Positions 29,182-47,155 of a stretch of DNA of 64,000 nucleotides are shown piece by piece. Both the position numbers and the translations under genes were made by a program. Under the pieces are notes generated by a model. It searched no databases, had not been told where the DNA came from, and was given only the letters and a program-made list of their open reading frames with translations. The DNA is taken from assembly GCA_964488535.1 (NCBI GenBank), contig CAZAUT010000003.1:2232-66231 (forward strand), given 5' to 3'. Source of the stretch: an uncultured Gammaproteobacteria bacterium (GTDB taxonomy: Bacteria > Patescibacteriota > Microgenomatia > UBA8517). The stretch's first letter is position 1, and every line of letters begins with the position of its first letter.

Positions 29182-29455
29182 AAACAGTTCGAATAAGATA
29201 TCCTCATTATTCGGTACTCCGACTGTCTGCCGACATACCGTTGTGACGTGATGACGCTTCACTTGCGTGGTAGACTATCGCCTACCCGGCTCCGGGATCC
29301 CAACCAATCCCTTCACAGCCTTTTTTAAATTATGTTGGTATAGTACCAAAATTTCGAAATAATTGCAAACATACTGAAGTTGAAAAGAATTTTGACATGT
29401 CGATCTGCGATTGCCATAGCGATTTGAAAAATCGGTATGTCGCAAAAATTTGCTG

Positions 29456-29527
29456 TGCCAAGGGAGAGGATCGAACTCTCGACATCGCGCTTATGAAACG
29501 CGCGCTCTACCACTGAGCTACCTTGGC
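29456..29527 (-). tRNA. tRNA-Met (CAT anticodon; elongator Met or Ile2/lysidine type)
   Basis: The minus strand reads GCCAAGGTAGCTCAGTGGTAGAGCGCGCGTTTCATAAGCGCGATGTCGAGAGTTCGATCCTCTCCCTTGGCA. The cloverleaf is complete, with anticodon loop TTCATAA and no GGG/CCC initiator signature in the anticodon stem. Confidence 0.8.
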
Positions 29528-29700: not shown

Positions 29701-29906
29701 TTACTAAAGCGTTGTATTAACTTCAATCTTGAAGTATAATTTACCCTGTTCTTTACCATAATTCCTAATTCATAATTCGTAATTCAGGAAAAATGTGCGG
29801 GGTAGTGTCCCGAAAAAATTTCGCTTTGCTCAATTCAACGGGACGAGCAGATGAAACTTCGCATACATTGGTAATTTTAATCGTATTTTAACAACTTAAT
29901 CATATG

Positions 29907-30227
29907 TGCGGGGTAGTGTACGGCTGCACGGAAGGCTCAAAATGGGCTTCCCGCTTAGCGGGATAAATTTGGCTATATCGGTGAAACCTAAGCTTTATAG
30001 AGTATGGCAACGCCGAGGAAAGACTACGTTCAAATTTTATGAAAGTAGAATCCGTAGAGACTATACGCCAAAGCACGTTCATATAAACTGAATGTACAAG
30101 ACATAGTCCGACACTCCCAAATACCTTTTGGTATTTGACAGTAAACTGTATAGTTCATTGCAAGAAATTGGAGATTACAGAATAAGCATAATCTTCCAGA
30201 TCAGGTTCAACTCCTGACCCCGCAACA
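29907..30227 (+). ncRNA. ssrA: tmRNA (SsrA)
   Basis: The 5' acceptor strand TGCGGGG pairs with the 3' CCCCGCA. The 3' T-arm CAGGTTCAACTCCTG is near-identical to the E. coli tmRNA T-arm GGGTTCAACTCCCGC. A candidate tag ORF at 30007-30042 (GCA ACG CCG AGG AAA GAC TAC GTT CAA ATT TTA TGA, giving ATPRKDYVQIL) aligns in position and codons with E. coli ANDENYALAA. Confidence 0.6.
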
Positions 30228-30762: not shown

Positions 30763-31626
30763 ATGACGCAGGTTGTTCTTAAAGACCTTTTGCCCAAATT
30801 CATACAACACCTCAAGGATAATAAAAGATCCCCATCGACAGTATTGGCGTACAAAGCAGACCTCGATCAGCTGGTTTCATTTCTCACAGAGAAAGGTAAA
30901 GTATTGACCGAAGATGTAGAAGCATCCGACATTGAAGGGTTCCGTGATACGCTGCTAGCCAACAAGTATACGCCGAAATCCGTTTCGAGAAAACTAAATG
31001 CCGTAAAAACGTTTTTCAGGTTTTTGACCGACAACAAAATATCTCCCAAAGATCCGTCGTCTTCAGTTTCTCACCCCAAAATCGAGTCAACTATGCCGAA
31101 ATTTTTATCTGCCATTGAATACAGAGCCTTGCGGGATGTGGTCCGAAACGACGCCAGGATAGCTGCAATAATTGAATTGATCTTAGAGGCCGGATTGAGA
31201 ATTTCTGAAGTAGCCGGACTTAAAAGGGAAAACTGCAAAAACCACATCCTTAAAATTGAGGCTTATGCAACTCAGGAAGCTCGGGAAATTCCTCTCAATG
31301 CATCGGCAAAGGCTGCCCTCGACAGGTATCTTAACGAGAGGCCGGATACCAAGTCTCCCTATGTATTCGTAAGTAAAAACGGAAAACCTCTTGCCATAAG
31401 AAATATCAGAGCAGCTATCGACAGATATTTCCAAAAAGCCGAAATTCCCGGATACACCGTAAACGATCTCCGCACTACTTTTGTCGTACAAAACTTAAAA
31501 GCCGGCGTGGATCTTATTCTTCTTTCCCGTGTTTCGGGCCCCAAAAGACTCTCAACGACGGAAAGATATCTTCAGCTTGCCCAAATCACCCAATCGGGCA
31601 AGAAACAGGAGTTGGTGGAGTTGTAA
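30763..31626 (+). CDS. tyrosine site-specific recombinase (XerC/XerD/integrase family), with divergent active-site residues
   Basis: Core-binding N-domain, ARG-I in GLRISEVAGL, DLRTTF in place of HxLRH, and C-terminal LSTTERY carrying the catalytic Tyr. Confidence 0.7.
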   Translation: MTQVVLKDLLPKFIQHLKDNKRSPSTVLAYKADLDQLVSFLTEKGKVLTEDVEASDIEGFRDTLLANKYTPKSVSRKLNAVKTFFRFLTDNKISPKDPSSSVSHPKIESTMPKFLSAIEYRALRDVVRNDARIAAIIELILEAGLRISEVAGLKRENCKNHILKIEAYATQEAREIPLNASAKAALDRYLNERPDTKSPYVFVSKNGKPLAIRNIRAAIDRYFQKAEIPGYTVNDLRTTFVVQNLKAGVDLILLSRVSGPKRLSTTERYLQLAQITQSGKKQELVEL

Positions 31627-32462: not shown

Positions 32463-32534
32463 GTGGGCTGAGATGGGTTCGAACCATCGACATCTACTTT
32501 ATAAGAGTAGCGCTCTACCACTGAGCTATCAGCC
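32463..32534 (-). tRNA. tRNA-Ile (TAT anticodon)
   Basis: The minus strand reads GGGCTGATAGCTCAGTGGTAGAGCGCTACTCTTATAAAGTAGATGTCGATGGTTCGAACCCATCTCAGCCCA. The cloverleaf is complete, with anticodon loop CTTATAA. Confidence 0.7.
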
Positions 32535-32568
32535 CTTAAATTTATTGACATGTCAAACTCCGTTTGCC

Positions 32569-33945: not shown

Positions 33946-36270
33946 CTATAGTTTTGATCTTCTTGCAATCTCTGCTTCAACAAGCCGAATGTCGCGCCCA
34001 TAATTAAGTCTGCTCATTTCGCGTATGATTTCGGCCACCTTCGGATTTTCCATAGCCTTTATTTTCTCAACATCGCGGAAAAGATCCATTGAAAATGGCG
34101 GAACGGGTTCATTATTTACCGTAGTTTTGACATAGACGTGATATTTTTCAATGTTAAGAAGGTCGTCTTCGGCAAAAACGGGTGTAAATTCATGCTGAAG
34201 GTAACTCGCGTCCGTAGTTCCGATTCTAAAAGAAATTATCGTGCCGACGTTCCCGAAAACGGCGTTTTTAACCTCTTCCTCCACCTGTCCGATAAACTGA
34301 TTTGCAACACAAAGTGCCAGAGCATATTTTCTGGCTTCGGAGAGAATGACAGCAAAATCAGGGGTTGCAAAATTTTGGAACTCATCAACATAAAGATAAA
34401 ACGGACGTCTTTGCTCTTTAGGTACGTCTGTCCTGCTCATTGCTGCCATAAGAATTCTTGGAACCAAAATAAGCCCCAAAAAGCTGGAGTTCTCCTCCCC
34501 GATCGTACCTTTTGAGAGATTGATAAAGAGAATCTTTCCGTCATCCATAACCCGGCGGAGATCGAAAGATGACTGGGATTGGCCGATTATATTCCTCACC
34601 ATCTTGTTTGTAACAAATCTTCCGAATTTTGAAGTAATATAGTCCAAAACTTCAGATTTATGAAAATCGGACGTCTGTGCAATCTGGTCGGTCCAGTAAC
34701 GCCGGACAATCGGATCCTTCACTTTAGGCAGCAGTTCCTGCACATAGCGCGAGTCTGTCAAAACCCTCATTACCTCGATAAAAGTGTTGCCATCCTCGCT
34801 CATAACCGTCAGCATTGCATTTCTTACTGCATGTTCAAAACGAGGGCCCACAATACCGGTTTTATAGGGATCGAAAAGCTTATACATCATGTTTATGACG
34901 GAAGTGGATGCAAAGTGCTTCTGATCTTCCGTTTTGGCTTCAAGAAGGTTTAACCCCATCGGTCTTTCCGTGTCGGAAGGGTTGAAATAAATAACATCCT
35001 CGGCCCGTTCCGGCGGGATGAGATTTAAAAGTTCCTCTACCGCGTCTCCATGCGGATCGATAAAACACACTCCCTCGCCGTTTCGTATGTCCTGAATTAC
35101 AAGATCTTTTAATAGCTCCGACTTTCCGACACCGGTTTTTCCGACAATATACATATGCCTCATTCTGTCTTCATCGGTAATGTAAACCGGCCGTTTTGTT
35201 CCCTGGTATGAACTTAATCCCAAATACGTTCCCGTCTGAGGAATTCTGGCCGGGGCAGGTGCGGTTTTTGAATAAACCCAATGTATATGGGGTGTTGTAA
35301 TCGTTTTATTGGGAAAATGATATATCGACGCAAGTTCCTCGGAATTAAGTATTGTTTTTTTATTTCCCATGATATGAAACATTGGGTGGTAACGGTAAAT
35401 AAAGTCTTCAATAAAAGCGCCTTTTTGTCTTACCTTTCTCCCTTTAAGATAATTAAGATCTCCGTTAAATTGTGCAAATGCACTGCTGATATTCGACAGG
35501 TGGGATTTTGCCGTCTCTTTGTTGTTGGCAACAACAACAATCCTGATTGATGTGTCAAAACCAGATTTGGATATTTTGTTTTCCACCGCCTCAAGCGTTT
35601 TCGCGGGAACGGAAAACTTTGCTTTCTCCGGATCTGCCTCCTGTTTCTTCGTTGAAGAAATAAAGCCGGATCCGGCTTTACTCCAGTTATTTTCTGCGGG
35701 AGAAATGAGTATTTGAATTGCAGCTGACTCACCATCGCCCATCTTTGCCAATGCTGCAGTTATAACCGACATAGGATCGGTGGGCAATTCTTTATATGTT
35801 TTCATCGGAAAGTAGTTGTCCCTTGCCAGTTGAAATGCCTTATAGGCAACCTTTCCTTCCTCCGTAAAGATATTGTATTCCTGTACTTCGGTCACGTCTG
35901 CATCGGGATACGCTCCGTGAATCTGTTTTTCTATCATGTCCTGAAATTTTTTCGGTGTCCAAACGTAAAAACGGATATCTTCCTTTTTGGCAACAATCTC
36001 GAAAGAAATCGTTGGCTGTGTTTTATATTTTTGTTTCCAACCGCCTTCTTTTATTGAATAAAGCGCGGAAAACATCTGCTCCATCGCATCAATTTTTATC
36101 TCATTATTTTTATGAACTGCCACCTGCAGTAAAACCGAGTCTATCGATTCTTCTTCTCTGTTTCGATGTTTGATATTCGTAAAAATAAAAAAAACCGCAA
36201 CGGCAGCAAAGAAAATAAAAAGAGACAATATTGCTAAAAATATTAGGATTATATCTATTTCGCTATACAT
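33946..36270 (-). CDS. type IV coupling protein-like P-loop ATPase (VirD4/TraD/TraG family), membrane anchored
   Basis: N-terminal TM helix, Walker A IVGKTGVGKS, Walker B YLYVDEFQNF, then ARKYALALCVANQF..GNVGTIISFRIG, which parallels the TrwB RKFGLRVVAGLQ..FRSLVVLG region. Confidence 0.55.
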   Translation of the reverse strand: MYSEIDIILIFLAILSLFIFFAAVAVFFIFTNIKHRNREEESIDSVLLQVAVHKNNEIKIDAMEQMFSALYSIKEGGWKQKYKTQPTISFEIVAKKEDIRFYVWTPKKFQDMIEKQIHGAYPDADVTEVQEYNIFTEEGKVAYKAFQLARDNYFPMKTYKELPTDPMSVITAALAKMGDGESAAIQILISPAENNWSKAGSGFISSTKKQEADPEKAKFSVPAKTLEAVENKISKSGFDTSIRIVVVANNKETAKSHLSNISSAFAQFNGDLNYLKGRKVRQKGAFIEDFIYRYHPMFHIMGNKKTILNSEELASIYHFPNKTITTPHIHWVYSKTAPAPARIPQTGTYLGLSSYQGTKRPVYITDEDRMRHMYIVGKTGVGKSELLKDLVIQDIRNGEGVCFIDPHGDAVEELLNLIPPERAEDVIYFNPSDTERPMGLNLLEAKTEDQKHFASTSVINMMYKLFDPYKTGIVGPRFEHAVRNAMLTVMSEDGNTFIEVMRVLTDSRYVQELLPKVKDPIVRRYWTDQIAQTSDFHKSEVLDYITSKFGRFVTNKMVRNIIGQSQSSFDLRRVMDDGKILFINLSKGTIGEENSSFLGLILVPRILMAAMSRTDVPKEQRRPFYLYVDEFQNFATPDFAVILSEARKYALALCVANQFIGQVEEEVKNAVFGNVGTIISFRIGTTDASYLQHEFTPVFAEDDLLNIEKYHVYVKTTVNNEPVPPFSMDLFRDVEKIKAMENPKVAEIIREMSRLNYGRDIRLVEAEIARRSKL

Positions 36271-36355
36271 ATATCTATCTTCACAAATACGTACAAATTA
36301 TAAATGAGTACTAATTTCCAATAAAAAATTCTTTCGTTGGTAATTTTTGAAATTC

Positions 36356-36718
36356 CTAAACAGAATTTTCTTTAGGGCTTGTAATCTTTTTAATCATTCT
36401 CCAACCGAAATGAATCGCTTTCTTGATTAGCCTGATCCAGAATACCGCAAACCAGGTTATTGCATTTTCCGAATCGCCCTTCGACCAATCTTCGAGCTGC
36501 TGCTGAGAAGCCGGTATCTGAATCGTCACCGTTTGAGTTTGCGGTGTTTGGATCAGAGGCTTCCCCGAATCGTCGTTGACCTGTGCCTGAAACTGGCTGG
36601 GAACTTTTTGTACAATACCTCCACGTTCCAGCTCCGGCGGAATTTCAACATCGGTCGGTCTTTCTTTAATTAAAGGCGGTCCGGGGGAATGCTGTTCCCT
36701 TTCAACATCGGTGGACAT
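36356..36718 (-). CDS. hypothetical protein with a C-terminal TM helix
   Basis: 120 aa: a Q/P-rich N-terminal half and ITWFAVFWIRLI as the TM segment. It lies immediately upstream of the coupling-protein-like gene in the same orientation. Confidence 0.35.
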   Translation of the reverse strand: MSTDVEREQHSPGPPLIKERPTDVEIPPELERGGIVQKVPSQFQAQVNDDSGKPLIQTPQTQTVTIQIPASQQQLEDWSKGDSENAITWFAVFWIRLIKKAIHFGWRMIKKITSPKENSV

Positions 36719-37026
36719 GCTAATTCATTATAACCAAAATTATCAAATTGTTATATGGCTATATGGCTATATTGTTACTACTTATTATTATTCTAACCTC
36801 GATTGACGAAGATAGATTCCCACGGCTGAAGCCGTGGTACATATATCATTTCAAACGCCTCGCGTTTGGATTGTCTGGTTCAATTCATCCCCCGCTGGGC
36901 GGGGTCTTCTTGAACTAATGATAAAATCTCTTCTTTATTGATTTATCACCTTTAACTATCAATTTCTTGATCACTCAATCAACTTGATTAACTCAATTAA
37001 CTTAATCAACTATTTGCTTGCGCAAT

Positions 37027-37056
37027 TTGACAAAGAAGAAGTAGTAGTAGTACAAT
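37027..37056 (+). promoter_or_regulatory. sigma70-like promoter, TTGACA-N18-TACAAT
   Basis: atttgacaaagaagaagtagtagtagtacaatg. A near-identical atttgacaaagaagaag box sits at 38284-38300 upstream of the second small Cys-rich ORF. Confidence 0.35.
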
Positions 37057-37426
37057 GCCCCATAATTATTTCATGAGTATAGAGTACATATTGGTTTCCG
37101 CAGATACACCGGCTGGTCAAGAGCATCACCTTAAAAAATATGCGCCTCCAGGATGTCCTGTCTTGGGTTGTTTAGATGAACATCGGAAAAGAGGCGAAGA
37201 TTGGTCTTATGCTTATCCGAAACCGGAAGAACAAAAACCATGGCCTATAGAATATTCAGGAACAGGAGAGGGTTTCACTCTCACATGCAGTCCTTGGTTT
37301 AACAGCAGAGTATGTGAAAGTTGTCGTTTAAATGAAAAAAATGGCGGCCATAAATACACCCACAAACCAACTTTGGGAGAAAAGATCAAAAAGGTAGTAC
37401 AGCAAATTGGAAATAAAATTTCCTAG
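37055..37426 (+). CDS. small Cys-rich hypothetical protein (cassette gene A)
   Basis: 123 aa with Cys pairs CPVLGC and CESC. The start may be the internal Met at 37073. Confidence 0.35.
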   Translation: MPHNYFMSIEYILVSADTPAGQEHHLKKYAPPGCPVLGCLDEHRKRGEDWSYAYPKPEEQKPWPIEYSGTGEGFTLTCSPWFNSRVCESCRLNEKNGGHKYTHKPTLGEKIKKVVQQIGNKIS

Positions 37427-37509
37427 GATTACTACTTCTTTGCTATCTTTGCAGAAAACCGTATTCACTTCAAGGTTGTTAACCTTCAAACCACCCACTT
37501 TTCCTCCCC

Positions 37510-37568
37510 AACCCCCTCTTTCCAATTCACCCACCTCGCCAGCATAAACAAATAATCCGATAAGATAA
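37510..37568 (-). pseudogene. remnant of the 3' end of a PduO-type adenosyltransferase gene
   Basis: ccaattcacccacctcgccagcataaacaaataatccgataag matches about 50 nt of the 3' coding end of the intact gene at 38700..38760. Confidence 0.35.
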
Positions 37569-37982
37569 TTAATCCAAATTCGTTTTTAGTCCGATCTGTT
37601 TGAAATGGTGGTCAAATGTAAAAATCTCATCAAACCTGTATTTTTTAAATTGATAAACAATTGAACCGTCGGTAAATGATAATTTTTTGTCATCGTATTT
37701 CTTGAGTTCTTCGAACACAAAACTATTTTCCAATTCCGATATTTCCATTACCCGTAAATTAAGCATTGCCCCTTTGTTTACAGCATCGTTAAAATCAATT
37801 ACCGCATATAGACCGGCATCATAAATTAGACGGGTAAATACTTCAGACAATACCAAATTATTCGTAAAAAAAAGCGGGCGTACTTTCGTAATTATATTAA
37901 TATACTTCTTTGCCTGAAGATGGTTTATGTCATTTTTATTTTCCAAAGCAAGCCATGCACCGGAATCAATAAATATTTTCAT
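37569..37982 (-). CDS. vapC: PIN-domain toxin VapC
   Basis: N-terminal MKIFIDSGAWLAL acidic-residue pattern of the PIN domain. It overlaps the upstream RHH gene by 4 nt. Confidence 0.75.
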   Translation of the reverse strand: MKIFIDSGAWLALENKNDINHLQAKKYINIITKVRPLFFTNNLVLSEVFTRLIYDAGLYAVIDFNDAVNKGAMLNLRVMEISELENSFVFEELKKYDDKKLSFTDGSIVYQFKKYRFDEIFTFDHHFKQIGLKTNLD

Positions 37983-38293
37983 TTGTAATAAATTTCATCC
38001 ACATTCTCAGACAAATTTACTTTTTTTCTGCCTGTTGAAACAGAACCGATAATCTTCTCAAGCCATAAATAATCACTGGGAATTTTACGGCTGTTTAATG
38101 AAAGCATTTTCCCCACTCTGGAAGAAGCGCCATCTACTGCCTCTCTTATCACTTCCGACCTTGTAAATCCGATTAATTTTGACGCTTCGTCCAAAATCTT
38201 AACACTTTGCGGCTCCAAATATACCTGATACCTTTTCATATACATACACCATACCATAGGTGTATATAATAAGTCAATACACCCATTTGACAA
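37979..38293 (-). CDS. vapB: RHH/CopG-type antitoxin VapB
   Basis: MKRYQVYLEPQSVKILDEASKLIGFTRSEVIREAV ribbon-helix-helix pattern. The real start is probably the Met at ~38239. Confidence 0.55.
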   Translation of the reverse strand: MSNGCIDLLYTPMVWCMYMKRYQVYLEPQSVKILDEASKLIGFTRSEVIREAVDGASSRVGKMLSLNSRKIPSDYLWLEKIIGSVSTGRKKVNLSENVDEIYYK

Positions 38294-38316
38294 AGAAGAA
38301 GAAGAAGTAAAATACT
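38284..38316 (+). promoter_or_regulatory. promoter-like box, TTGACA + A-rich -10 (second copy)
   Basis: atttgacaaagaagaagaagaagtaaaatact. Confidence 0.3.
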
Positions 38317-38328
38317 GAAAATTCTTAT

Positions 38329-38682
38329 TTGTATATGGAAATCACAAAAGGTGGCACAGATAAATCAAATAAGGTTCTTCTTTGCGATGTTTCCCGCAAT
38401 GTGAAATATCAGCATAGTGTACCTTCCAGACCAAGCAGGGGAACGTGCGATAGTGGGGACGGAAGCGTTCATTGTGATTGGTGTAAACACGCGCAAGAAT
38501 TTTTAACAGAACATGCAGTAAATAATTCGGCAGATGGTGCAGAAAGTATTCGTTTTGTTCCCAATCCGGACGATCACTCTCTCACAGTCGTTTACCCTTC
38601 AAAACCCGATGGAACGTTTATGAGTAGGTCTGTTGCTCGCGGACACCTGTCCGATCCCGAAAAAGTTGATGTTGTAGATTGA
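38329..38682 (+). CDS. small Cys-rich hypothetical protein (cassette gene B)
   Basis: 117 aa with CDSGDGSVHCDWCKH. The table start is TTG; the first ATG is at 38335. Confidence 0.35.
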   Translation: MYMEITKGGTDKSNKVLLCDVSRNVKYQHSVPSRPSRGTCDSGDGSVHCDWCKHAQEFLTEHAVNNSADGAESIRFVPNPDDHSLTVVYPSKPDGTFMSRSVARGHLSDPEKVDVVD

Positions 38683-38699
38683 TTCGTATTTTTATAATT

Positions 38700-39236
38700 T
38701 CACTTTATCCACTTCTTTTCTCTAATCCCCTTTTCCCAATTCACCCATCTGGCCAATACAAACAAATAATCCGACAGGCGATTAAGGTATTTCAAAACCC
38801 CCGCCGGAACCTTTTCCGCCTCACTTAATCCCACCACTTCTCTCTCCGCTCTTCTGGCCAGTGTCCTTGCATACTGAAGCCTTGCTGCAACCGGACTTCC
38901 GCCCGGATAAATAAAATTTGAAAGTTTCGGCAGTATTTTATCGGTTTCGTCTATTTCCTCTTCCAATTTTCTTGTTTCTTTACTTTCTAATTTCAAATCT
39001 GATCCTGCTAAAATTGAACCCGTTGTCAGTAAATTATTTTGAACCAGCCTTAGTTTTACCTTCAATTTTTCATCAGAAGTTTCCGCTATAACAATTCCCA
39101 AAAAACTATCAATCTCATCAACCGCTCCGATTGCCCGGGTATTGCATGACGATTTTGAAACACGGACCGATTTTCCGTCAACTTTTCTGAAAAGTCCCGT
39201 TGTTCCGTCATCGCCGGTTTTTGTATAAATAACCAT
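38700..39236 (-). CDS. ATP:cob(I)alamin adenosyltransferase, PduO type
   Basis: N-terminus IYTKTGDDGTTGL and C-terminal RLSDYLFVLAR. Confidence 0.75.
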   Translation of the reverse strand: MVIYTKTGDDGTTGLFRKVDGKSVRVSKSSCNTRAIGAVDEIDSFLGIVIAETSDEKLKVKLRLVQNNLLTTGSILAGSDLKLESKETRKLEEEIDETDKILPKLSNFIYPGGSPVAARLQYARTLARRAEREVVGLSEAEKVPAGVLKYLNRLSDYLFVLARWVNWEKGIREKKWIK

Positions 39237-39767: not shown

Positions 39768-41927
39768 CTAAAGTTCGCATGTACTAAACCCGCACTTTTT
39801 GCATTTGAAGCATTTATTATCCCTGACCAGTAAAATATTACATGTGGGACATTTTCTCAATGAGGGAAGGGTTCTTTCCGACGACCCGAACTCAAAAACC
39901 TGGTTGTTTTTTGCCTTATCGCGGTAAACGGTAAGGCCTTTGCAACCCAGTTTCCAGGCCAAAATGTACGCCTGTTCGACATCGTCGGGTGTTGCGTGAG
40001 AAGGCATATTAATTGTTTTTGTTATCGCGTTGTCTGTCCACTTCTGAAAAGCAGCCTGCATTCTGATGTGATCGCGCCAGTCAATATCGTGTGCCACTTT
40101 AAAAACATTCCGAAGATGTTTCGGAATCTCGGTTATACCCTGCGCACTTCCATGATTCTGAACCACCTTTTGAATAAGACTGTCGCTGTAAACGCCGTAT
40201 TCTTTAAGCTTTCTCGTAAAAATGCCGACTGTGTTTTTTAACCGCATCCCGTCCAAGACGTTTTGTTCATATGCAAGTGCAAAAAAGGGTTCTATCCCGA
40301 AAGAAGTCTCACAAATGACTGCATTTCCGCTTGATGGCGGGAAAGTTAAGAGAGCTACATTTCTTGGCTTGTCCTTCCTTTCCGCCCAAATTGATTTATT
40401 AACAAGCGGAAATGCTCCCTTTTCTTTTGCCAAATGCACCGAAGCCTCAAAGCCCGACTGATACATCGTCTGCGTGACTTTTTCGGCTAGATTAAAGGCT
40501 TCGACACTGTCATAGGGTATTTCCATCATGGCAAGCGTTTCCGCCCAGCCGACACAGCCGATTCCGATCCTTCTGTGTTTTTTTACTGCCTCGGAAATTT
40601 CCTGTACCGGAAACCATGAAGCATCAATTACATTATCCATTAACCGCACCGCTGTCTTCATTGTCTTCTGCAATCCTTCAAAATCAAATCCGCCGTCCGG
40701 CGGACCATGTATCACAAATTTGGTAAAATTTATATATCCCAGATTACAGGACTCGTATGGATATAAAGGAACCTCTCCGCAGGGATTGGTCGTCATTAAA
40801 AGCCCCTGTTTTCCGAGAAGCGGATTGGATAGTGCCGTTCCTTTGTTTATTGCGGATAAATTAATAATTCCCGGATCTCCCGTTTGCCACGCCATTTGGG
40901 CCATTAGTTCAAGAATCGAATTTGCTTTAACTTTATTCACGACTTCACCCGTTCTTGGATTTATAAGGTCCCAGTTATCACCGTTTTGCGCTTTTTGCAT
41001 AAACTCATCGGTAACACCAACCGAAATGTTTGTTTTTGAAAGATAGCCGTCGTTTTGCTTCGAGGAAATAAAATTAAAAATATCGGGGTGGCTCGAATTC
41101 AATATTGCCATGTTTCCGCTTTCATATTTCCCCTCCTGTTTGAACAGGGATGTCATAAGATCAAACATTTCGATCAGTTTTACCGGCCCTGCAGCCAGGT
41201 TTGGAGCGCCCCCAACCGGATCTCCCTCGGGACGGATCATTGAGAAATTATAACCGCATCCCCCGCCGTGTTTTTTAATTAAAGTGGATTTGTGAAGAAT
41301 ATTGAAAATTGAATTAATATCATCCTCGATTGGCCAGACAAAACAATTAGCAAGCTGGGGAGATTTTTTTCCGGCATTGGCAAGCGTTCTTGTACCCGGA
41401 AGAAACTTGAAACTCATCATCAGATCAAGAAAGCGCTTGTTCCATAGACTTCTCTTTTCTTTTGTTTTTTCGACATCGGAAAGGCATTTTGCAACCCTTT
41501 CAAACATTTGCCGTGGTGTTTCCAAAATCTCCCCCTTCTCGTTTTTTTTAAGGTAACGTGACTTAAGAATGTATAAAGTATTGTAAGAAAGTCCAATATC
41601 GTCCTTCACCCCAAGCGATTCTTTATCCTGTCTCAAATGTTTTTTGTTCTCCCGGTATCTGATAAATTCTTTCGCTGTTTTTGCGTGACCGCGTTCAATA
41701 AGAACCTTTTCTACAATTTCGCCGATTTCCGAAGTTTTTATGTTTTCACCGACAGCGTACTTTTCCTTCAAAACAGTCAAAACCTCGTTCCTTAAGGAAA
41801 GTGCCGTCTTTTCGTCCTTTCCTCCGACATTCCGTGCTGCAAGAAAGATACTCCGGAAAATTTTCTCTCCGTCAAACGGCTCGTTTATTCCGCTCGCTTT
41901 GATAACGTATTTGGCTGGTTGCTTCAT
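39768..41927 (-). CDS. nrdJ: adenosylcobalamin-dependent (class II) ribonucleotide reductase with an N-terminal ATP-cone
   Basis: ATP-cone VIKASGINEPFDGEKIFRSI, NCFVWP, radical-site TTNPCGEVPL, and a C-terminal CxxC...CxxC zinc ribbon. Confidence 0.85.
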   Translation of the reverse strand: MKQPAKYVIKASGINEPFDGEKIFRSIFLAARNVGGKDEKTALSLRNEVLTVLKEKYAVGENIKTSEIGEIVEKVLIERGHAKTAKEFIRYRENKKHLRQDKESLGVKDDIGLSYNTLYILKSRYLKKNEKGEILETPRQMFERVAKCLSDVEKTKEKRSLWNKRFLDLMMSFKFLPGTRTLANAGKKSPQLANCFVWPIEDDINSIFNILHKSTLIKKHGGGCGYNFSMIRPEGDPVGGAPNLAAGPVKLIEMFDLMTSLFKQEGKYESGNMAILNSSHPDIFNFISSKQNDGYLSKTNISVGVTDEFMQKAQNGDNWDLINPRTGEVVNKVKANSILELMAQMAWQTGDPGIINLSAINKGTALSNPLLGKQGLLMTTNPCGEVPLYPYESCNLGYINFTKFVIHGPPDGGFDFEGLQKTMKTAVRLMDNVIDASWFPVQEISEAVKKHRRIGIGCVGWAETLAMMEIPYDSVEAFNLAEKVTQTMYQSGFEASVHLAKEKGAFPLVNKSIWAERKDKPRNVALLTFPPSSGNAVICETSFGIEPFFALAYEQNVLDGMRLKNTVGIFTRKLKEYGVYSDSLIQKVVQNHGSAQGITEIPKHLRNVFKVAHDIDWRDHIRMQAAFQKWTDNAITKTINMPSHATPDDVEQAYILAWKLGCKGLTVYRDKAKNNQVFEFGSSERTLPSLRKCPTCNILLVRDNKCFKCKKCGFSTCEL

Positions 41928-41936
41928 GTTGATAAT

Positions 41937-44243
41937 TTAAAGCCTGCACTTACTCCACCCGCATTCTTTGCAACTTCTACATCCTCCCTCAAATTCCAAA
42001 ACTCCTTTGCACTCCGGGCAGTTTTTTTCTTCTTTCTCCAATTCGGGCTTATACTTTTCACCGGTATTTATTACTTGATCCTCCTTGCTGCCATCTCTGT
42101 AAACCGTAATGCCCTTACATCCGAGTTTCCATGCCAGCATGTACGATTTCTCAACCTCCTCAACCGTCGCCGTGTTTCTGAAGTTTATGGTTTTTGACAC
42201 AGCATTATCGGCATATTTCTGAAACGCTGCCTGTATTCTTACATGCCACTGGGGATCAATGTCGTGTGTTGTAACAAAAACTTTTCTGATGTCACCGGGA
42301 AGTCCGGGTACATTTTGAATTGAACCGTGATTTTTGATAATTTTTTCGATCAACGTATCACTAAACAGATTTTTTTCTTTTAATATTTCCTCAAAAACCG
42401 GATTAATATAATAAAGTTTTCTGGTAGATCTATTCTTGTGATCCTCGTTATAGAAAGAACTCCTTGTATAAACAAGGGCAAAACTTGGCTCGACACCGCT
42501 TGTTGTATCTCCAATCATCGATACTGTACCTGTTGGAGCAATAGTAATCATCGTACAATTACGATATTTCTCTGCGGATCCTTTGTAGGTCGATATGTCC
42601 CAATTGGGAAATACACCGCGAGTTTTGGCTAATTCAAGCGAAGCTTCTTCGGCTTTGCGTTTAACAAATTTTGCAATCTTATCCGCAATCCGTACACCGT
42701 CGGGGCTGTTATAGGCAATATTCAATTTAAAAAGTGTTTCCGCAAAACCTACCATTCCCAAACCTATTTTCCTGTTTCCGTACTTTACGATTTTTTCGGT
42801 TTCGGGTAAAACATAGTAGTTTGTTTCAATCATATTGTCCAAAAAACGGACAAGTGTTTTAACCGTATCTCCCAACTCTTCCCAGTTAATTTCCCATCCG
42901 CCATTCTTCCTGATTAAATGGTTTGCTAAATGAACGGAAGAAAGGTTGCATGACTCGTAAGGTAACAAAGGTTGTTCACCACATGGATTCGTTGCATTTA
43001 ACACTCCAAGGCTTGGAGTGAAGTTATCCTCTTCCATCCGGTCTAAAAAGACCATCCCGGGATCGCCGGTTTTCCACGCATGTTCACAAATTTCATGAAA
43101 AAGTTTTCGGGCAGAAACTTTCTTCACCGCCACTCCATCCCGTGGATTCACCAGAGAAAACTTCTTATCAGCCACGACCGCTTCCATAAACTCATTTGTC
43201 GCACCGACAGAAATGTTAAAATTCTTCATATTTCCGTCTTCGTCCTTGATTTTAATGAACTCAAAAATGTCAGGGTGGTTAACATTTAAAATACCCATAT
43301 TTCCACCGTGTTTTTTGGATCCCTGCATAATTTTTGACAAGGCTGCACTGTAAACCTGCAAAAAGTCCACAGGCCCTGAAGCGGTATTTGGAACATTTCT
43401 TACCTTGTCACCCTTGAAACGTATATCACTGAAGTTAAATCCTGTTCCTCCAAAGTTTTTTTGAATGAGAGCTGCCTCGCCAAGTGTCTGGAAAATTTTA
43501 GAAATAGAATCTTCAATTTTCAAGACGAAGCATGGGGAAAGTTGCTGCAAACAATGGTCATTACCGGCTTCATACATAGCACTGGTAGTGCATATAAATT
43601 TAAACTTAACCATTTTATTAAAAAATACCTGTGCTGCCAATTCGACATCTTTTTCGTTACCCCAATTAATTTCTGTTTTGGCGATATATTTCGCAACTCT
43701 CCAGAAAATCTGTCCCGGAGTCTCTTCCGGCTTTCCGTCAGCACCCAACTTGGAACATCTGGCAACAAGGGTTGTCCTGGCATTGCCGGTCATTTCCGGT
43801 TCGCGGATGATAAATTCGTCTTTTTTTGACTGTTCCTTCCTTTCTTTGTATAAAATATAATATCTGGCCGTTTCGAAATAACCTTTCTGTGCAATGACAG
43901 GTTCAACAATGTTCCGGATTTCTAATGTGGAAATGACTGGTTTCTTAAAAATTAAAAGCTTGGATAGGACTTCTTTTAATATGGCGTTTGAGTCCTCTTT
44001 GGAATAGGACATCGTATCCTTGCCGGCTAAGATAATACTTTTTACTATTTTATTCCAAATGAATAATTGTGTCTGTCCGTCCGATTTTATTACTTTTTTT
44101 ATTTTTAATTTGGGTAAATTTGCTTTTATGTAATCTTTGTCTTTTTTCATATCAACACTCCGAATAACCGCATCCGTGACACGTCTTGCAGCCCATTTCG
44201 TGAACCAAAGTTGCGTTTCCGCAAGACGGACAAAAATCGGCAT
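41937..44243 (-). CDS. nrdJ: class II ribonucleotide reductase paralogue 2, with ATP-cone
   Basis: ATP-cone VIKSDGQTQLF, ATNPCGEQPL, and a C-terminal CPECK..CRSCKECG. The start is probably the Met at ~44153. Confidence 0.85.
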   Translation of the reverse strand: MPIFVRLAETQLWFTKWAARRVTDAVIRSVDMKKDKDYIKANLPKLKIKKVIKSDGQTQLFIWNKIVKSIILAGKDTMSYSKEDSNAILKEVLSKLLIFKKPVISTLEIRNIVEPVIAQKGYFETARYYILYKERKEQSKKDEFIIREPEMTGNARTTLVARCSKLGADGKPEETPGQIFWRVAKYIAKTEINWGNEKDVELAAQVFFNKMVKFKFICTTSAMYEAGNDHCLQQLSPCFVLKIEDSISKIFQTLGEAALIQKNFGGTGFNFSDIRFKGDKVRNVPNTASGPVDFLQVYSAALSKIMQGSKKHGGNMGILNVNHPDIFEFIKIKDEDGNMKNFNISVGATNEFMEAVVADKKFSLVNPRDGVAVKKVSARKLFHEICEHAWKTGDPGMVFLDRMEEDNFTPSLGVLNATNPCGEQPLLPYESCNLSSVHLANHLIRKNGGWEINWEELGDTVKTLVRFLDNMIETNYYVLPETEKIVKYGNRKIGLGMVGFAETLFKLNIAYNSPDGVRIADKIAKFVKRKAEEASLELAKTRGVFPNWDISTYKGSAEKYRNCTMITIAPTGTVSMIGDTTSGVEPSFALVYTRSSFYNEDHKNRSTRKLYYINPVFEEILKEKNLFSDTLIEKIIKNHGSIQNVPGLPGDIRKVFVTTHDIDPQWHVRIQAAFQKYADNAVSKTINFRNTATVEEVEKSYMLAWKLGCKGITVYRDGSKEDQVINTGEKYKPELEKEEKNCPECKGVLEFEGGCRSCKECGWSKCRL

Positions 44244-46662
44244 GACGGCTTAACAGAGACAATTGATTATTTCTGTCGTCACTCAGTCCTTTTGTACCGT
44301 AATTGTAAGACAGACCATTGCCGTTAATAAGTAATTTCTCCTGAACCGGCTGGTTATACTCCTTCTTGTTTTCCGGAATCATTCCAACATCCAGAGATAA
44401 GGCTCTGGCAATTGCATCCGGCAGTGATAATATTCTGTCCGATCCAAAACCAACACTTCTTGACCCGCCTATGCCTTGAAGTTGTTCTATTATAATTGCA
44501 GCTCTCTCTCTGCCGGTTAAGTTGCTGCCCAATCTTAAGGATTTGGAAATGACACGACCTAAGGCTTCCGCCATTGCCTGCACGTCACTGCCCGCCCTTC
44601 CGATATTAATGAATGTCTCAACCGGACTTCCCGTTTCATCATGATTTACAGTAATAAATGCTGTCCCCACAGGTGTTTTCAAACGGTAGGTTGAACCGGA
44701 CACTTTAATTGGCCGTTCCCAAATTGCTAAAAACGATTTTGATTCGCCGTTTTTGTATACTCCATTTTTTGATTCCGCCTTCTCCTCTTTCTTTTCATTT
44801 CTTATCAACGTCCCTTCCCTTGATCCTTCTCTCATGTAAGATATTCCCTTGCATCCGGTGTCGTAGGCAAGCATGTAAAGCTTCTTTACATCGTGCGCTG
44901 TGTGAGACTTCGGAGCGTTCACGGTCTTACTGATAGAAGAATCGGTATAGGTTTGTATTAATGCCTGAATTTTTACGTGCTCATCAGGGGATAAATTGTC
45001 GGCAGTTACAAAGTAGGACGGGATATTTTCCTTTCCGTTGTTTTCTATCCATTCCTGATAGAGCGGATGATACATCGTCCTCTCCCCCAACCGGTCTTTC
45101 TGAATATAGGAGAATGAGAAAACAGGTTCTATTCCCGAAGATACTCCTGCAAGAAGTGCTATTTTTCCGGTCGGAGCTTCCGTTGTCAGAAAACAATTTC
45201 TAATACCCTGACGGCGAATTTTTTGTCTGATCTCCTTCGGCAAATTTTTAATAAAACCACCCCGAAGAAAATTCTCTTTGTTGTAAGCAGGAAAAACACC
45301 CTTCTCTTTTGCTAAATCACTTGAGCAGTCATAAGATGTATCACGAAGGGTTTTGTAAATTTTTTCTATAAGTTTTAATGATTCTTCCGAGCCGTAGCGA
45401 ATCTTCAATTTAATGAGCATGTCGGCAAGTCCCATTGTTCCAAGACCAAGTCTTCTTTCTCTTTTTTGTGTCTCTTCGATTTCGGGGTAAAGATAATTTT
45501 CCGAATCAACTGCATTATCCAAAAATCTCACTCCCACTTTAATAGTCTTAGTAAAATCATCAAAGTCAAATACATCTCCGTTAACAAAGGCAGACAGATT
45601 AAGTGAACTTAAATTGCATACCCCCCAAGCCGGTAATCCCTGTTCACCGCATACGTTTGTTGCAATTACTTTTTCAAAATACCAGGAATTGTTCATATCA
45701 TTGTATCTGTCCATATACACAACACCCGGTTCGGCCGATTCCCAAGCCGATTCGCATATTCGGTCCCACAGCTCACGCGCTTTGATTGTTTTATAAATTT
45801 TTGTGGGATAACTTTTTCTTTTCCACTCGCTCAAATCGCCGCTCCATTCTTGTCTATACTTCTCAAAATCGGTATCCGGAAATTCCAAATGCCAGTCTTT
45901 GTCGTTTTTCACTGCCTCCATAAACGAGTCCGACAAACAGATGCTCAGATTGGCTCCGGCAATTTTTCCCGTTTCTTTCTTTATCGAAATAAATTCTTCA
46001 ATGTCGGGATGCCAATCCCAAAGCATTATCATTAACGCCCCGCGCCTTGTCCCTCCCTGCTGAATAATGTCATGAACGGCAACAGAATAAAGGTTTGCCC
46101 ATGAAACAGCACCCGAACTTGTTCCGTTAACGCTTTTTAAATATGATCCGTTTGGCCTGAGCGTGGAAATGTTGAAACCTACTCCTCCGCCCCGTGCGCT
46201 AATTTCCGTGACCTGCTCCAAAGTTTTTATAATTCCGCCTCTCGTATCCTGAGGGTTTGGTATAACAAAGCAATTAATCATTGTTGCATTGGAACCGCTG
46301 CCTGCTGCCGTCAAAAATCTTCCGGCCGGACAAAATTTAAAGTCCACCATGGCTTCATAAAAATTCTTTTCCCATACTTTTTTTTCTTTGGAGGTTTTTT
46401 CCGCTTGAGCAAGCGCAAAGGATACACGATGCCACATCTGTTCGGGGTATTTTTCCATTGGTTTTCCTTTCTCGTTTTTTAGAGAATATCTGTCAAGAAA
46501 CAACTGTTTTCTTATCCCCGTTAAGGAAGTGCCCTCATGAACTGTTACAAGATGACGAATACTGTTGTATTTTGAACCCAAAGTTTTTGATAACTTTTTT
46601 ATTTTCATAATTTTAAAATCACAAAGTACACGGGATAAATCGGGAAGAATGGCGGATAACAC
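44152..46662 (-). CDS. nrdJ: class II ribonucleotide reductase paralogue 3, no ATP-cone, long C-terminal extension
   Basis: NCFVIP, ATNVCGEQGL (Pro to Val in the NPCGE motif), and a C-terminal CPSCG..CKTCHGCG. The start is probably MKIKKLSK at ~46611. Confidence 0.8.
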   Translation of the reverse strand: MLSAILPDLSRVLCDFKIMKIKKLSKTLGSKYNSIRHLVTVHEGTSLTGIRKQLFLDRYSLKNEKGKPMEKYPEQMWHRVSFALAQAEKTSKEKKVWEKNFYEAMVDFKFCPAGRFLTAAGSGSNATMINCFVIPNPQDTRGGIIKTLEQVTEISARGGGVGFNISTLRPNGSYLKSVNGTSSGAVSWANLYSVAVHDIIQQGGTRRGALMIMLWDWHPDIEEFISIKKETGKIAGANLSICLSDSFMEAVKNDKDWHLEFPDTDFEKYRQEWSGDLSEWKRKSYPTKIYKTIKARELWDRICESAWESAEPGVVYMDRYNDMNNSWYFEKVIATNVCGEQGLPAWGVCNLSSLNLSAFVNGDVFDFDDFTKTIKVGVRFLDNAVDSENYLYPEIEETQKRERRLGLGTMGLADMLIKLKIRYGSEESLKLIEKIYKTLRDTSYDCSSDLAKEKGVFPAYNKENFLRGGFIKNLPKEIRQKIRRQGIRNCFLTTEAPTGKIALLAGVSSGIEPVFSFSYIQKDRLGERTMYHPLYQEWIENNGKENIPSYFVTADNLSPDEHVKIQALIQTYTDSSISKTVNAPKSHTAHDVKKLYMLAYDTGCKGISYMREGSREGTLIRNEKKEEKAESKNGVYKNGESKSFLAIWERPIKVSGSTYRLKTPVGTAFITVNHDETGSPVETFINIGRAGSDVQAMAEALGRVISKSLRLGSNLTGRERAAIIIEQLQGIGGSRSVGFGSDRILSLPDAIARALSLDVGMIPENKKEYNQPVQEKLLINGNGLSYNYGTKGLSDDRNNQLSLLSRHADFCPSCGNATLVHEMGCKTCHGCGYSEC

Positions 46663-46714
46663 CGGATTTTTCCCTGCGTTTTCCTGTCATAATCCTGTTT
46701 CTTCCTGTGTGCTT

Positions 46715-47155
46715 CTACTCTTTGATCGCGCGTGCAAAATCCTCCAAATCCTCAAACTGCAGATAAACGCTTGCAAACCGAAGCCACGCCACCTTGTCGA
46801 TTCTTTTTAATTTTTTCAGTATTGCAATACCTATAGCTTTACTGGAAACCTCCTCTTTTTCTTTTCTCAACATCTCCCTCTCCACCCTATCCACGATATC
46901 GTTAACCAAATCCATTGAAACGGGTCTTTTCTCAACGGCTCGTAATATTCCCTTTTTGATCTTCTCTCTGTCATAAGGTTCTCGCCTGCCGTCTTTTTTT
47001 ACAACCCACATTGCTGATCCGCCAATCTTCTCGTAAGTTGTAAATCTTTTTTTACATTTTAAACATTCCCTTCTTCTTCTCAAAGATTTTCCTTCATCAA
47101 CCATGCGCGACTCTAAAACCTGTGTATCGTTTGCTGTACAAAATGGACAACGCAT
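46715..47155 (-). CDS. nrdR: transcriptional repressor NrdR
   Basis: N-terminal zinc ribbon MRCPFCTANDTQVLESR...CLKCKKRFTTYE followed by an ATP-cone. Confidence 0.85.
   Translation of the reverse strand: MRCPFCTANDTQVLESRMVDEGKSLRRRRECLKCKKRFTTYEKIGGSAMWVVKKDGRREPYDREKIKKGILRAVEKRPVSMDLVNDIVDRVEREMLRKEKEEVSSKAIGIAILKKLKRIDKVAWLRFASVYLQFEDLEDFARAIKE

What the first reader, a model, noticed from the sequence alone, without database searches (positions are those of the whole stretch)
37027..38790. Duplicated cassette: two unrelated small Cys-rich genes share a near-identical promoter and a conserved 3' flank, bracketing vapBC
Both small ORFs (37055-37426 and 38329-38682) are preceded by ATTTGACAAAGAAGAAG boxes. 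Each is followed by a ~55-nt conserved block (CCAATTCACCCAYCTSGCCA..AAACAAATAATCCGA). In the second copy that block is the genuine 3' end of the PduO-type adenosyltransferase gene; in the first copy it is a noncoding remnant. The coding parts between the conserved flanks are not alignable by eye. Conserved flanks with a diversified payload is how polymorphic or cassette-type loci look, for example toxin/immunity or bacteriocin-like genes.
Basis: seen in the sequence. Interest (0 to 1): 0.55.

Follow-up and report, generated by a model that had tools for sequence, protein, structure and literature searches.

The report
Recombination scar in variable gene slot
The repeated flanks are real. They are best read as the scar of a 1.2-kb foreign piece (gene tail, small gene, vapBC toxin-antitoxin pair) inserted into the end of a cobalamin adenosyltransferase gene in an uncultured Woesebacteria-like bacterium, which is an ordinary kind of genome-island event rather than a new cassette system.

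Summary
- An exact 17-mer promoter box (ATTTGACAAAGAAGAAG) occurs at 37025 and 38285.
- A 66-78 nt block occurs at 37486-37563 and 38700-38777, 76-80% identical.

What the blocks are:
- Block B is the true 3' end of the PduO-type adenosyltransferase gene.
- Block B' is a displaced copy of codons 154-178 plus the stop codon. B and B' differ at 20 nucleotides, only 1 of them at a second codon position, so they diverged while both were coding.

Related Woesebacteria keep the gene order RNR - PduO - [slot] - 118-aa gene - 774-aa ATPase. The slot is hypervariable:
- It can be 45 bp, or hold one or two small Cys-containing ORFs behind the same TTGAC-N16-18-TAnAAT promoter type, or hold other genes.
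- One relative (L102) has an AbiE toxin-antitoxin pair followed by its own displaced PduO tail.

The two small ORFs:
- ORF1 has one homologue, at the same position in a relative.
- ORF2 has none.
- ORF1 and ORF2 are not detectably related to each other.

Best reading: a segment [PduO tail + ORF2 + promoter + vapBC] was inserted into the resident PduO tail. This pushed the resident tail, ORF1 and its promoter distally. There is no integrase, no attC-like structure, and no toxin, immunity or bacteriocin signature. The function of the small proteins is unknown; zinc binding is a guess. Interest is modest.

The parts
37025..37056 (+). Box A. Promoter of unit 1, with -35 TTGACA at 37027-37032, an 18-nt (AAG)3(TAG)3 spacer, and -10 TACAAT at 37051-37056.
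   Evidence: Exact 17-mer repeat. 25 nt at 92%. Best promoter match of the region, 11 of 12. Homologous promoter and 5'UTR in L006 unit 1.
37073..37426 (+). ORF1, 117 aa (the alternative ATG at 37055 lies inside the -10 box). Small protein with Cys28, 33, 72, 81 and 84. Function unknown.
   Evidence: No homologue other than itself in 5.8e9 proteins or 1.84e9 representatives. Homologous to the 99-aa ORF at the same position in L015 (Smith-Waterman z 11.4, p about 2e-7), with 4 Cys conserved. Codon-usage score is borderline. No family hits.
37486..37563 (-). Block B'. Displaced, non-coding remnant of the PduO 3' end: codons 154-178 plus an in-frame stop at the original position.
   Evidence: tblastn 17 of 24 identities, E 5e-8. 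20 nt differences from B, split 10/1/9 by codon position, P=0.003. No similarity upstream of codon 154 or downstream of the stop. 76% identical both to the window's own B and to the L101 tail.
37569..37982 (-). vapC, PIN-domain toxin, 137 aa. Its stop codon lies 6 nt from the end of B'.
   Evidence: phmmer against the PDB hits M. tuberculosis VapC20, E 4.4e-7 over residues 2-131. Plasmid relatives are annotated as VapC or PIN. GC is 0.32, against 0.41-0.47 for its neighbours.
37979..38239 (-). vapB, ribbon-helix-helix antitoxin. It overlaps the vapC start by 4 nt. The start is ATG 38239 or TTG 38218.
   Evidence: Pfam RHH_1 E 0.0012 and RHH_3 E 0.0035, both below the curated cut-off. The gene caller gives 79 aa. 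A candidate promoter TTGTCA-16-TATTAT on the minus strand at 38293-38266 shares its -35 with A'.
38285..38316 (+). Box A'. Promoter of unit 2, with -35 TTGACA at 38287-38292 and an (AAG)5 spacer. The -10 is TAAAAT (15-nt spacer) or AATACT (18-nt spacer).
   Evidence: Exact 17-mer repeat. Promoter scan 10 of 12. The GAAGTAAAAT -10 region resembles L006 unit 2 and L018.
38335..38682 (+). ORF2, 115 aa, with Cys17, 38, 47 and 50. An orphan of unknown function. It is convergent with PduO and its stop lies 17 nt from the PduO stop.
   Evidence: No homologue other than itself in 5.8e9 proteins. Codon-usage score lies within the range of real genes. No family or PDB hits. Not related to ORF1 or to the small ORFs of relatives.
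38700..39236 (-). Intact PduO-type ATP:cob(I)alamin adenosyltransferase gene. Its last 26 codons (38700-38777) are block B.
   Evidence: Pfam PF01923, E 5.7e-49. 6378 homologues; the closest are 65-74% identical, one of them named Woesebacteria by its source.

Best explanation
The locus joins two versions (haplotypes) of the same variable slot downstream of the PduO adenosyltransferase gene.
- Version H1 was [promoter A - ORF1 - convergent PduO].
- Version H2 was [vapBC - promoter A' - ORF2 - convergent PduO].

A segment of about 1.2 kb (PduO tail + ORF2 + A' + vapBC; 37564-38777) now sits inside what was the tail of the H1 PduO gene, at about codon 151-154.
- PduO therefore stays intact, with one tail (B).
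- The other tail (B') is left as a stub, together with ORF1 and promoter A on its far side.

Why the flanks match:
- The 3' flanks match because both are PduO coding sequence from two diverged lineages.
- The promoters match because a strong sigma-70-type promoter driving a short-leader small ORF convergent on PduO is the usual content of this slot in this group of Woesebacteria.

Most likely route: recombination with DNA from a related species, anchored by homology on the PduO side and joined illegitimately next to the vapC stop codon. This resembles homology-facilitated illegitimate recombination, or 'sequential displacement'.

Shown: the anatomy, the coding-type divergence of B and B', the hypervariable slot, and a second independent case.
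Inferred: which haplotype was resident, the recombination mechanism, and expression of the small ORFs.
The function of the small proteins is unknown. A Zn(Cys)4 site is only a guess from four conserved cysteines.
For: 1. B' is a PduO tail with its stop codon retained in place. Its 20 differences from B fall 10/1/9 on codon positions 1/2/3 (P=0.003), and 5 of the 13 differing codons are synonymous. The divergence therefore arose while both copies were coding.
2. B' is as close to the tail of another species (L101, 76%) as to its own B (76%). That is an orthologue-level distance.
3. Similarity ends at the stop codon and at codon 154. The upstream edge abuts the vapC stop codon.
4. Relatives share the order RNR-PduO-[slot]-118aa-774aa, but the slot content varies:
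   - 45-49 bp in L008 and L009; 290 bp without an ORF in L103.
   - One small Cys ORF in L015 and in L018; two in L006.
   - DHH, DUF6580, a helical protein, or an AbiE pair in others.
5. L015 has exactly the proposed H1 arrangement: promoter, then an ORF1 homologue (z 11.4), then intact PduO.
6. L102 shows the same architecture independently: PduO, then AbiEii/AbiEi, then a displaced PduO tail of 32 codons plus stop.
   - Alignment score 44 against a shuffle maximum of 18; E about 1e-13.
   - Second codon positions are depleted among the differences (5 of 30, P=0.036).
   - The stub is closer to the tails of other lineages (71%) than to the tail now on the gene (59%).
7. vapBC has a lower GC content (0.32-0.37) than its neighbours.
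8. Promoter modules are shared by the six small-ORF units across species.
9. The same kind of event, in which an incoming module shifts the old 3' end and its downstream gene backwards, is proposed for V. cholerae T6SS effector-immunity arrays (PMC5361080, read).
Against: - No contig with an intact H1 or H2 haplotype was found. All proteins of the locus are singletons, known only from this organism.
- Both tails carry the motif WVNW, which is seen in no other sampled lineage. That fits an in-situ paralogue at least as well as two species.
- At 76-80% identity, RecA-dependent anchoring would be inefficient.
- The stub edges in the window (codon 154) and in L102 (codon 146) lie within 8 codons of each other. 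This hints at a preferred site rather than random illegitimate joints.
- Microhomology at the junction cannot be established without the parental sequences.
- Box A and A' are more similar (92%) than B and B'.
Confidence: 0.55

Rival explanations
1. In-situ tandem duplication. An ancestral segment [promoter - small ORF - PduO] was duplicated, and both PduO paralogues were kept under selection for a long time. The small ORFs diverged or were replaced. The distal PduO copy was later destroyed by the arrival of vapBC, leaving B'.
For: - Both tails share the lineage-unique WVNW motif.
- A and A' are 92% identical over 25 nt.
- L006 also carries two promoter-ORF units in tandem.
- Coding-type divergence is also expected for two functional paralogues.
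Against: - None of 103 related loci scanned has a second PduO copy.
- In L102 the stub resembles the tails of other lineages more than the tail on its own gene, which points to import.
- The model needs two independent truncations, in the window and in L102, that leave nearly the same short stub.
- ORF1 and ORF2 are unalignable although the flanks are 76-92% identical.
Confidence: 0.2
2. Site-specific cassette capture. The PduO tail, around codons 146-154, is an attachment site. Small integrase-less elements (promoter plus small gene, or a toxin-antitoxin pair) carry a replacement tail, are inserted by a recombinase acting in trans, and accrete in tandem, much as cis-mobilizable elements (CIMEs) do (from my own knowledge).
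For: - The architecture equals an attL - cargo - attR structure with the gene reconstituted.
- Two independent lineages have different toxin-antitoxin cargo of similar size (1.1-1.2 kb).
- Their stub edges lie within 8 codons of each other.
- The longest identical run between B and B' (13 nt, TCGGATTATTTGT) lies at the upstream edge.
- There is a possible third, decayed stub in L006, in register.
Against: - There is no recombinase in or next to the insert. The only tyrosine recombinase in the window (30763-31626) is 6 kb away and sits at the same conserved position, next to DivIC, in relatives without insertions.
- B has no hairpin or inverted repeat.
- The L006 stub is not significant (113 of 500 shuffles reach its score).
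- The cargo contains a promoter and small ORF typical of the native slot.
- No copies occur elsewhere in the window, in the fetched loci, or in viral contigs.
Confidence: 0.15
3. Artefact or coincidence: a chimeric metagenome assembly of two strains, or chance similarity of low-complexity sequence.
For: - The source is a metagenome-assembled contig.
- Box A is partly a trinucleotide repeat.
Against: - The junctions are identical in three assemblies.
- The repeats share at most 13 identical bases, too few to mis-join contigs built from k-mers.
- The statistics exclude chance.
Confidence: 0.03

Closest known systems
Sequential displacement by homology-facilitated illegitimate recombination, as proposed for V. 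cholerae T6SS effector-immunity arrays and for Rhs/CDI orphan arrays (PMC5361080)
   Same: - A conserved anchor gene sits next to a variable module.
- The incoming module brings its own copy of the anchor's 3' end.
- The old 3' end and the old downstream gene are shifted distally and kept as orphans.
   Different: - The anchor is a housekeeping cofactor enzyme (PduO), not a toxin.
- The displaced genes are not known immunity genes.
- Only one displacement step is visible.
- The mechanism is not demonstrated here.
Integrative elements and their integrase-less derivatives (CIMEs) inserted in the 3' end of a gene (from my own knowledge)
   Same: - Direct repeats of the target gene's 3' end flank the cargo.
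- The target gene stays intact.
- Toxin-antitoxin genes are typical cargo.
   Different: - There is no integrase and no defined core.
- The repeats are only 76-80% identical.
- The cargo is only 1.2 kb and includes sequence typical of the native slot.
Integron gene cassettes
   Same: Small single-gene units lie in tandem with similar boundaries.
   Different: - There is no attC hairpin and no IntI.
- Each unit has its own promoter.
- The shared 3' block is coding sequence of a neighbouring gene.
Type II toxin-antitoxin vapBC modules as cargo of chromosomal hot spots
   Same: An RHH antitoxin and a PIN toxin overlap by 4 nt, have low GC, and are absent from the same slot in relatives.
   Different: Nothing unusual about the module itself. 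It is cargo here, not the cause of the repeats as far as can be seen.

Membership tests
VapBC type II toxin-antitoxin | PIN-domain toxin with conserved acidic residues | tested here: met
   PDB VapC20, E 4.4e-7 over residues 2-131. The alignment shows D6, and by eye E47, D104 and D123. Pfam and NCBIfam models do not reach their thresholds.
VapBC type II toxin-antitoxin | Small DNA-binding antitoxin gene directly upstream in the same operon | tested here: met
   RHH_1 E 0.0012 and RHH_3 E 0.0035, both below the curated cut-off. A 4-nt overlap at 37979-37982.
Integron cassette array | attC site: an imperfect palindrome that folds as single-stranded DNA at the 3' end of each cassette | tested here: not met
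   B and B' fold no better than shuffled sequence on either strand (z +0.7 to -0.06).
Integron cassette array | Adjacent IntI integrase with attI and Pc | tested here: not met
   The only tyrosine recombinase (30763-31626) is 6 kb away and sits at the same place in relatives without insertions.
Site-specific integrative element in a gene's 3' end | Direct repeats of the target's 3' end flanking the insert, with the target gene reconstituted | tested here: met
   B and B' flank 37564-38699 and PduO is intact.
Site-specific integrative element in a gene's 3' end | Recombinase encoded in the element | tested here: not met
   The insert holds only ORF2 and vapBC.
Site-specific integrative element in a gene's 3' end | The same crossover core in independent insertions | tested here: inconclusive
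   The stub starts at codon 154 in the window and codon 146 in L102. The longest identical run is 13 nt, at the edge. There are only two cases.
Displacement by homology-facilitated illegitimate recombination | The displaced 3' stub of the anchor gene derives from a functional orthologue | tested here: met
   Codon-position bias 10/1/9, P=0.003. The stop codon is retained. The distance equals that between species.
Displacement by homology-facilitated illegitimate recombination | Microhomology at the illegitimate joint, and a homologous crossover on the other side | not testable with these tools
   The parental haplotypes are not in any searched collection.
Polymorphic toxin/immunity or bacteriocin locus | A recognisable toxin, immunity, leader-peptide or export component | tested here: not met
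   No hits for ORF1 or ORF2 in Pfam, NCBIfam, PADLOC or the PDB. Neighbouring genes are RNR, PduO and a TrwB-like ATPase. Signal or leader peptides were not tested with a dedicated tool.
Zinc-ribbon-like small proteins | Four Zn ligands (Cys/His knuckles) conserved among homologues, and a zinc-ribbon fold | tested here: inconclusive
   Cys28, 72, 81 and 84 of ORF1 are conserved in its L015 homologue. ORF2 has C17, C38 and C47-x2-C50. The AlphaFold2 models are too poor to judge the fold (pLDDT 55 and 41).

The most novel reading that the evidence does not exclude
The PduO tail is an attachment site for a family of tiny elements without an integrase in Woesebacteria. Each element is a promoter plus a small Cys-rich gene, or a toxin-antitoxin pair. 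Each carries a replacement tail and is captured one after another, which would make this a cassette-capture system unlike integrons in a CPR lineage.
Probability: 0.12. Interest if true: 0.7.

Novelty: new member of a known kind. Interest (0 to 1): 0.3.

Why it matters
This is a clean, dated example of how accessory genes enter the small, streamlined genome of an uncultured Patescibacteria/CPR bacterium. The entry point is one hot spot at the end of an essential-cofactor operon, the old gene tail is left behind as a fossil, and the same thing happened independently in a second species with a different toxin-antitoxin system.

It also flags a set of strongly promoted, fast-evolving small Cys-containing proteins that sit convergent on the RNR-PduO operon. 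Their function is unknown.

It does not reveal a new mechanism.

Tried and rejected
- **Homologue searches for ORF1 and ORF2.** The word-indexed search of 5.8e9 proteins found only the query itself for both. A full phmmer search of 1.84e9 representatives for ORF1 also found only itself.
- **Family and structure libraries.** Pfam, NCBIfam, PADLOC and PDB sequence searches gave nothing for the small ORFs.
- **Viral contigs.** Nothing for either ORF.
- **Structure prediction.** Single-sequence AlphaFold2 gave pLDDT 55 and 41. That is too low for a fold search, so none was run.
- **Genome-contig scan with PduO.** Only distant relatives, 40-45% identical.
- **Metagenome-contig scan with a PduO alignment.** The peptide patterns were too general. 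Those loci were still screened for PduO-tail remnants, and none was found.
- **Rfam.** Nothing in 36650-38800 at E<=1.
- **Integron-like attC idea.** Rejected by folding.
- **PduO itself being foreign.** Rejected. Nucleotide identity to relatives is about 70% for both RNR and PduO and 72-78% for the two genes on the other side of the slot, with no local drop at PduO.
- **A third remnant in L006.** It is in register but not significant.
- **Profile tests linking ORF2 to the other small ORFs.** Scores of 0-3 bits.
Full report
**1. Observation**

- The 17-mer ATTTGACAAAGAAGAAG occurs exactly at 37025 and 38285, and nowhere else in the window with fewer than 3 mismatches. The repeat extends to 25 nt at 92% identity.
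- A second direct repeat of 66 nt at 80% identity links 37495-37560 to 38709-38774. A local alignment of the PduO tail against the slot scores 40, against a maximum of 19 in 500 dinucleotide shuffles.
- Between the repeats the two units do not align.
- The same sequence, junctions included, was assembled with 100% identity from two other read sets. The repeats share at most 13 identical bases, so a mis-assembly is unlikely.

**2. What the blocks are**

- Block B (38700-38777) is the last 25 codons plus the stop codon of a PduO-type ATP:cob(I)alamin adenosyltransferase gene (38700-39236, minus strand; PF01923, E 5.7e-49).
- Block B' (37486-37563, minus strand) translates to LSDYLFMLARWVNWKEGVGEEKWVV*. 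This corresponds to codons 154-178 of the same protein, with the stop codon in its original place.
- Of the 20 nucleotide differences between B and B', 10 fall on first, 1 on second and 9 on third codon positions (P=0.003). Five of the 13 differing codons are synonymous.
- The two copies therefore diverged while both were part of functional genes. B' has been non-coding only recently.
- Similarity stops at the stop codon on one side (19 of 60 matches beyond it) and at codon 154 on the other (12 of 48 matches), six bases from the vapC stop codon.
- B' is 76% identical to its own B and also 76% identical to the tail of a different species (L101).
- Box A contains the best sigma-70-type promoter of the region: TTGACA, 18 nt, TACAAT, 11 of 12. 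The ATG at 37055 lies inside the -10 hexamer, so ORF1 probably starts at 37073. ORF2 probably starts at 38335.
- Between B' and A' lies a vapBC pair.
  - The toxin is a PIN protein that matches M. tuberculosis VapC20 (E 4.4e-7).
  - The antitoxin is ribbon-helix-helix and overlaps the toxin gene by 4 nt.
  - The pair has lower GC (0.32-0.37) than its neighbours.

**3. Context from relatives**

The closest PduO proteins (60-74% identical) are mostly unnamed; the ones that carry a source name are labelled Woesebacteria or Patescibacteria. Their contigs share the gene order RNR - RNR - (IVS protein) - PduO - [slot] - 118-aa gene - 774-aa DUF8128/TrwB-like ATPase. The slot is hypervariable:

| Locus | Slot content |
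|---|---|
| L008, L009 | 45-49 bp |
| L103 | 290 bp, no ORF |
| L015 | one small Cys-containing ORF (99 aa) |
| L018 | one small Cys-containing ORF (67 aa) |
| L006 | two small ORFs (89 and 73 aa) |
| L019 | DHH protein |
| L104 | DUF6580 protein |
| L101 | helical protein |
| L102 | AbiEii/AbiEi toxin-antitoxin pair |

- All small ORFs in L006, L015 and L018 are convergent on PduO. Each sits behind TTGAC-N16-18-TAnAAT, with 10-16 nt between the -10 box and the ATG, as in the window.
- The promoter and 5'UTR of L006 unit 1 are clearly homologous to box A (TTGACA...GAAGAAGTACAATGCCC[C/T]ATA). The -10 region of A' (GAAGTAAAAT) resembles L006 unit 2 and L018.
- So the 'near-identical promoter' belongs to a promoter/small-ORF module that is the usual content of this slot in the group.

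**4. The small ORFs**

- Neither ORF has a database homologue other than itself. Neither has a family, PDB or viral hit.
- Both are likely to be real genes.
  - Each is an open frame of about 117 codons in 41-44% GC DNA, placed directly behind a consensus promoter.
  - The codon-usage score is in the range of real genes for ORF2 and borderline for ORF1.
- ORF1 is homologous to the L015 99-aa ORF at the same position (Smith-Waterman z 11.4, p about 2e-7). Four cysteines are conserved.
- L006-73 and L018-67 are homologous to each other (E 6e-13).
- ORF2 and L006-89 are singletons.
- ORF1 and ORF2 are not detectably related (z -0.6; profile scores 0-3 bits).
- AlphaFold2 without an alignment gave unusable models. 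Structural homology therefore remains untested, and a Zn(Cys)4 site is only a guess.

**5. A second, independent case**

In L102 (PduO 69% identical to the window's) an AbiEii/AbiEi pair lies directly after PduO. It is followed by a displaced PduO tail of 32 codons plus stop.
- Alignment score 44, against a shuffle maximum of 18; E about 1e-13.
- Second codon positions are again depleted among the differences (5 of 30, P=0.036).
- The stub is more like the tails of other lineages (71%) than like the tail now attached to the gene (59%). The attached tail is therefore probably the imported one.
- None of the other loci scanned shows a stub.
- A possible decayed stub lies between the two L006 units, in register, but it is not significant (113 of 500 shuffles).

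**6. Explanation**

The anatomy is that of an insertion of [PduO tail + ORF2 + A' + vapBC], about 1.2 kb, into the tail of a resident PduO gene whose downstream neighbour was A-ORF1. L015 shows exactly this single-unit arrangement.
- The insertion reconstitutes PduO.
- It leaves the other tail as a stub.
- It puts two promoter/small-ORF modules in tandem.

I favour recombination with DNA of a related species. One side would be anchored by homology in or upstream of PduO, and the other side joined illegitimately next to vapC. The same logic was proposed for the sequential displacement of T6SS effector-immunity modules and Rhs orphans (PMC5361080). Short stubs may be the ones that survive, because long direct repeats would be lost by recombination; this point is inference.

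**7. Rivals**

- *In-situ duplication of [A - ORF - PduO], with later loss of most of the distal PduO copy.*
  - For: the WVNW motif is shared only by B and B'.
  - Against: no relative has two PduO copies, and the tail affinities in L102 point to import.
- *A site-specific, integrase-less cassette.*
  - For: the two stub edges lie within 8 codons of each other, and the two cargos are of similar size.
  - Against: there is no recombinase in the insert. The only one in the window is a conserved Xer-like gene 6 kb away, also present in relatives without insertions. Block B has no structure. No further copies are found.
- *An integron-like or a toxin/immunity/bacteriocin reading.* Neither has positive support.

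**8. Verdict**

However, the flanks are a neighbouring gene's coding tail and a lineage-typical promoter, not cassette boundaries.

The locus is a new example of a known kind of event: a hot-spot insertion that displaces a gene tail and carries a toxin-antitoxin pair, here in a CPR bacterium. Two things have some interest, namely the recurrence in two species and the fast-evolving small Cys-containing proteins. Overall interest is modest.

Noticed in passing
window 36800-36915: Three GC-rich hairpins lie in the slot between the 120-aa gene and box A. MFE is -44.2 kcal/mol on the minus strand (z -4.5) and -42.2 on the plus strand (z -3.0). The last hairpin looks like a plus-strand intrinsic terminator. 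There is no Rfam match. The L006 slot has similar hairpins at the equivalent place.
   Followed up: partly
window 29891-30132 (+): Rfam group I intron match (51.9 bits; gathering score 50) between tRNA-Met (29455-29527, minus strand) and the DivIC gene. No obvious host gene lies on that strand.
   Followed up: no
window 32463-32535 (-): A tRNA-Ile with anticodon TAT (UAU) rather than the usual bacterial CAU/lysidine type.
   Followed up: no
window 39768-47155 (-): NrdR followed by three tandem ribonucleotide reductase paralogues, one with a TSCPD domain, then a 23S-IVS four-helix protein and PduO. This looks like an AdoCbl-RNR operon with PduO as its last gene. The small ORFs are transcribed towards its end with 17 nt or less of spacer and no terminator.
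   Followed up: partly
L006 3344-3610 (-), residues 15-54 of the 89-aa ORF: The N-terminal half of this small ORF weakly resembles PduO residues 128-167 in the sense orientation (E 2e-4 to 0.1 against many PduO proteins). It may be chance, or a small ORF born from an inverted PduO fragment.
   Followed up: partly
window 37033-37050 and 38293-38307: The promoter spacers are trinucleotide repeats, (AAG)3(TAG)3 and (AAG)5. Unit 2 has a 15-nt spacer to TAAAAT, or 18 nt to the weaker AATACT. Slippage by one triplet would change promoter strength. No variation was seen in the three assemblies.
   Followed up: no
window 38266-38293 (-): A candidate vapBC promoter, TTGTCA-16-TATTAT, uses the same bases as the -35 of A' on the opposite strand. 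ORF2 and vapBC would then be driven by back-to-back promoters with overlapping -35 boxes.
   Followed up: no
window 36719-36735; L008 3202-3246; L009 5538-5586; L015 1120-1142; L103 1320-1338: The conserved sequence AAATTCATTATA lies immediately upstream of the 118/120-aa gene. On the gene strand this reads TATAAT-N6-ATG, which suggests leaderless transcription of the 118-aa/774-aa ATPase operon.
   Followed up: partly
L102 8-807 (-): An insertion sequence (DUF4096 + DDE_Tnp_1) lies directly upstream of PduO in the relative that also carries the AbiE insertion. Both flanks of PduO are therefore rearranged there.
   Followed up: no
window 33946-36718 (-): The 120-aa and 774-aa (DUF8128 / TrwB-VirD4-like ATPase) pair is conserved at 73-92% protein identity in six compared relatives, far more than PduO. 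It is not part of a mobile element here, despite the conjugation-type Pfam hits.
   Followed up: partly
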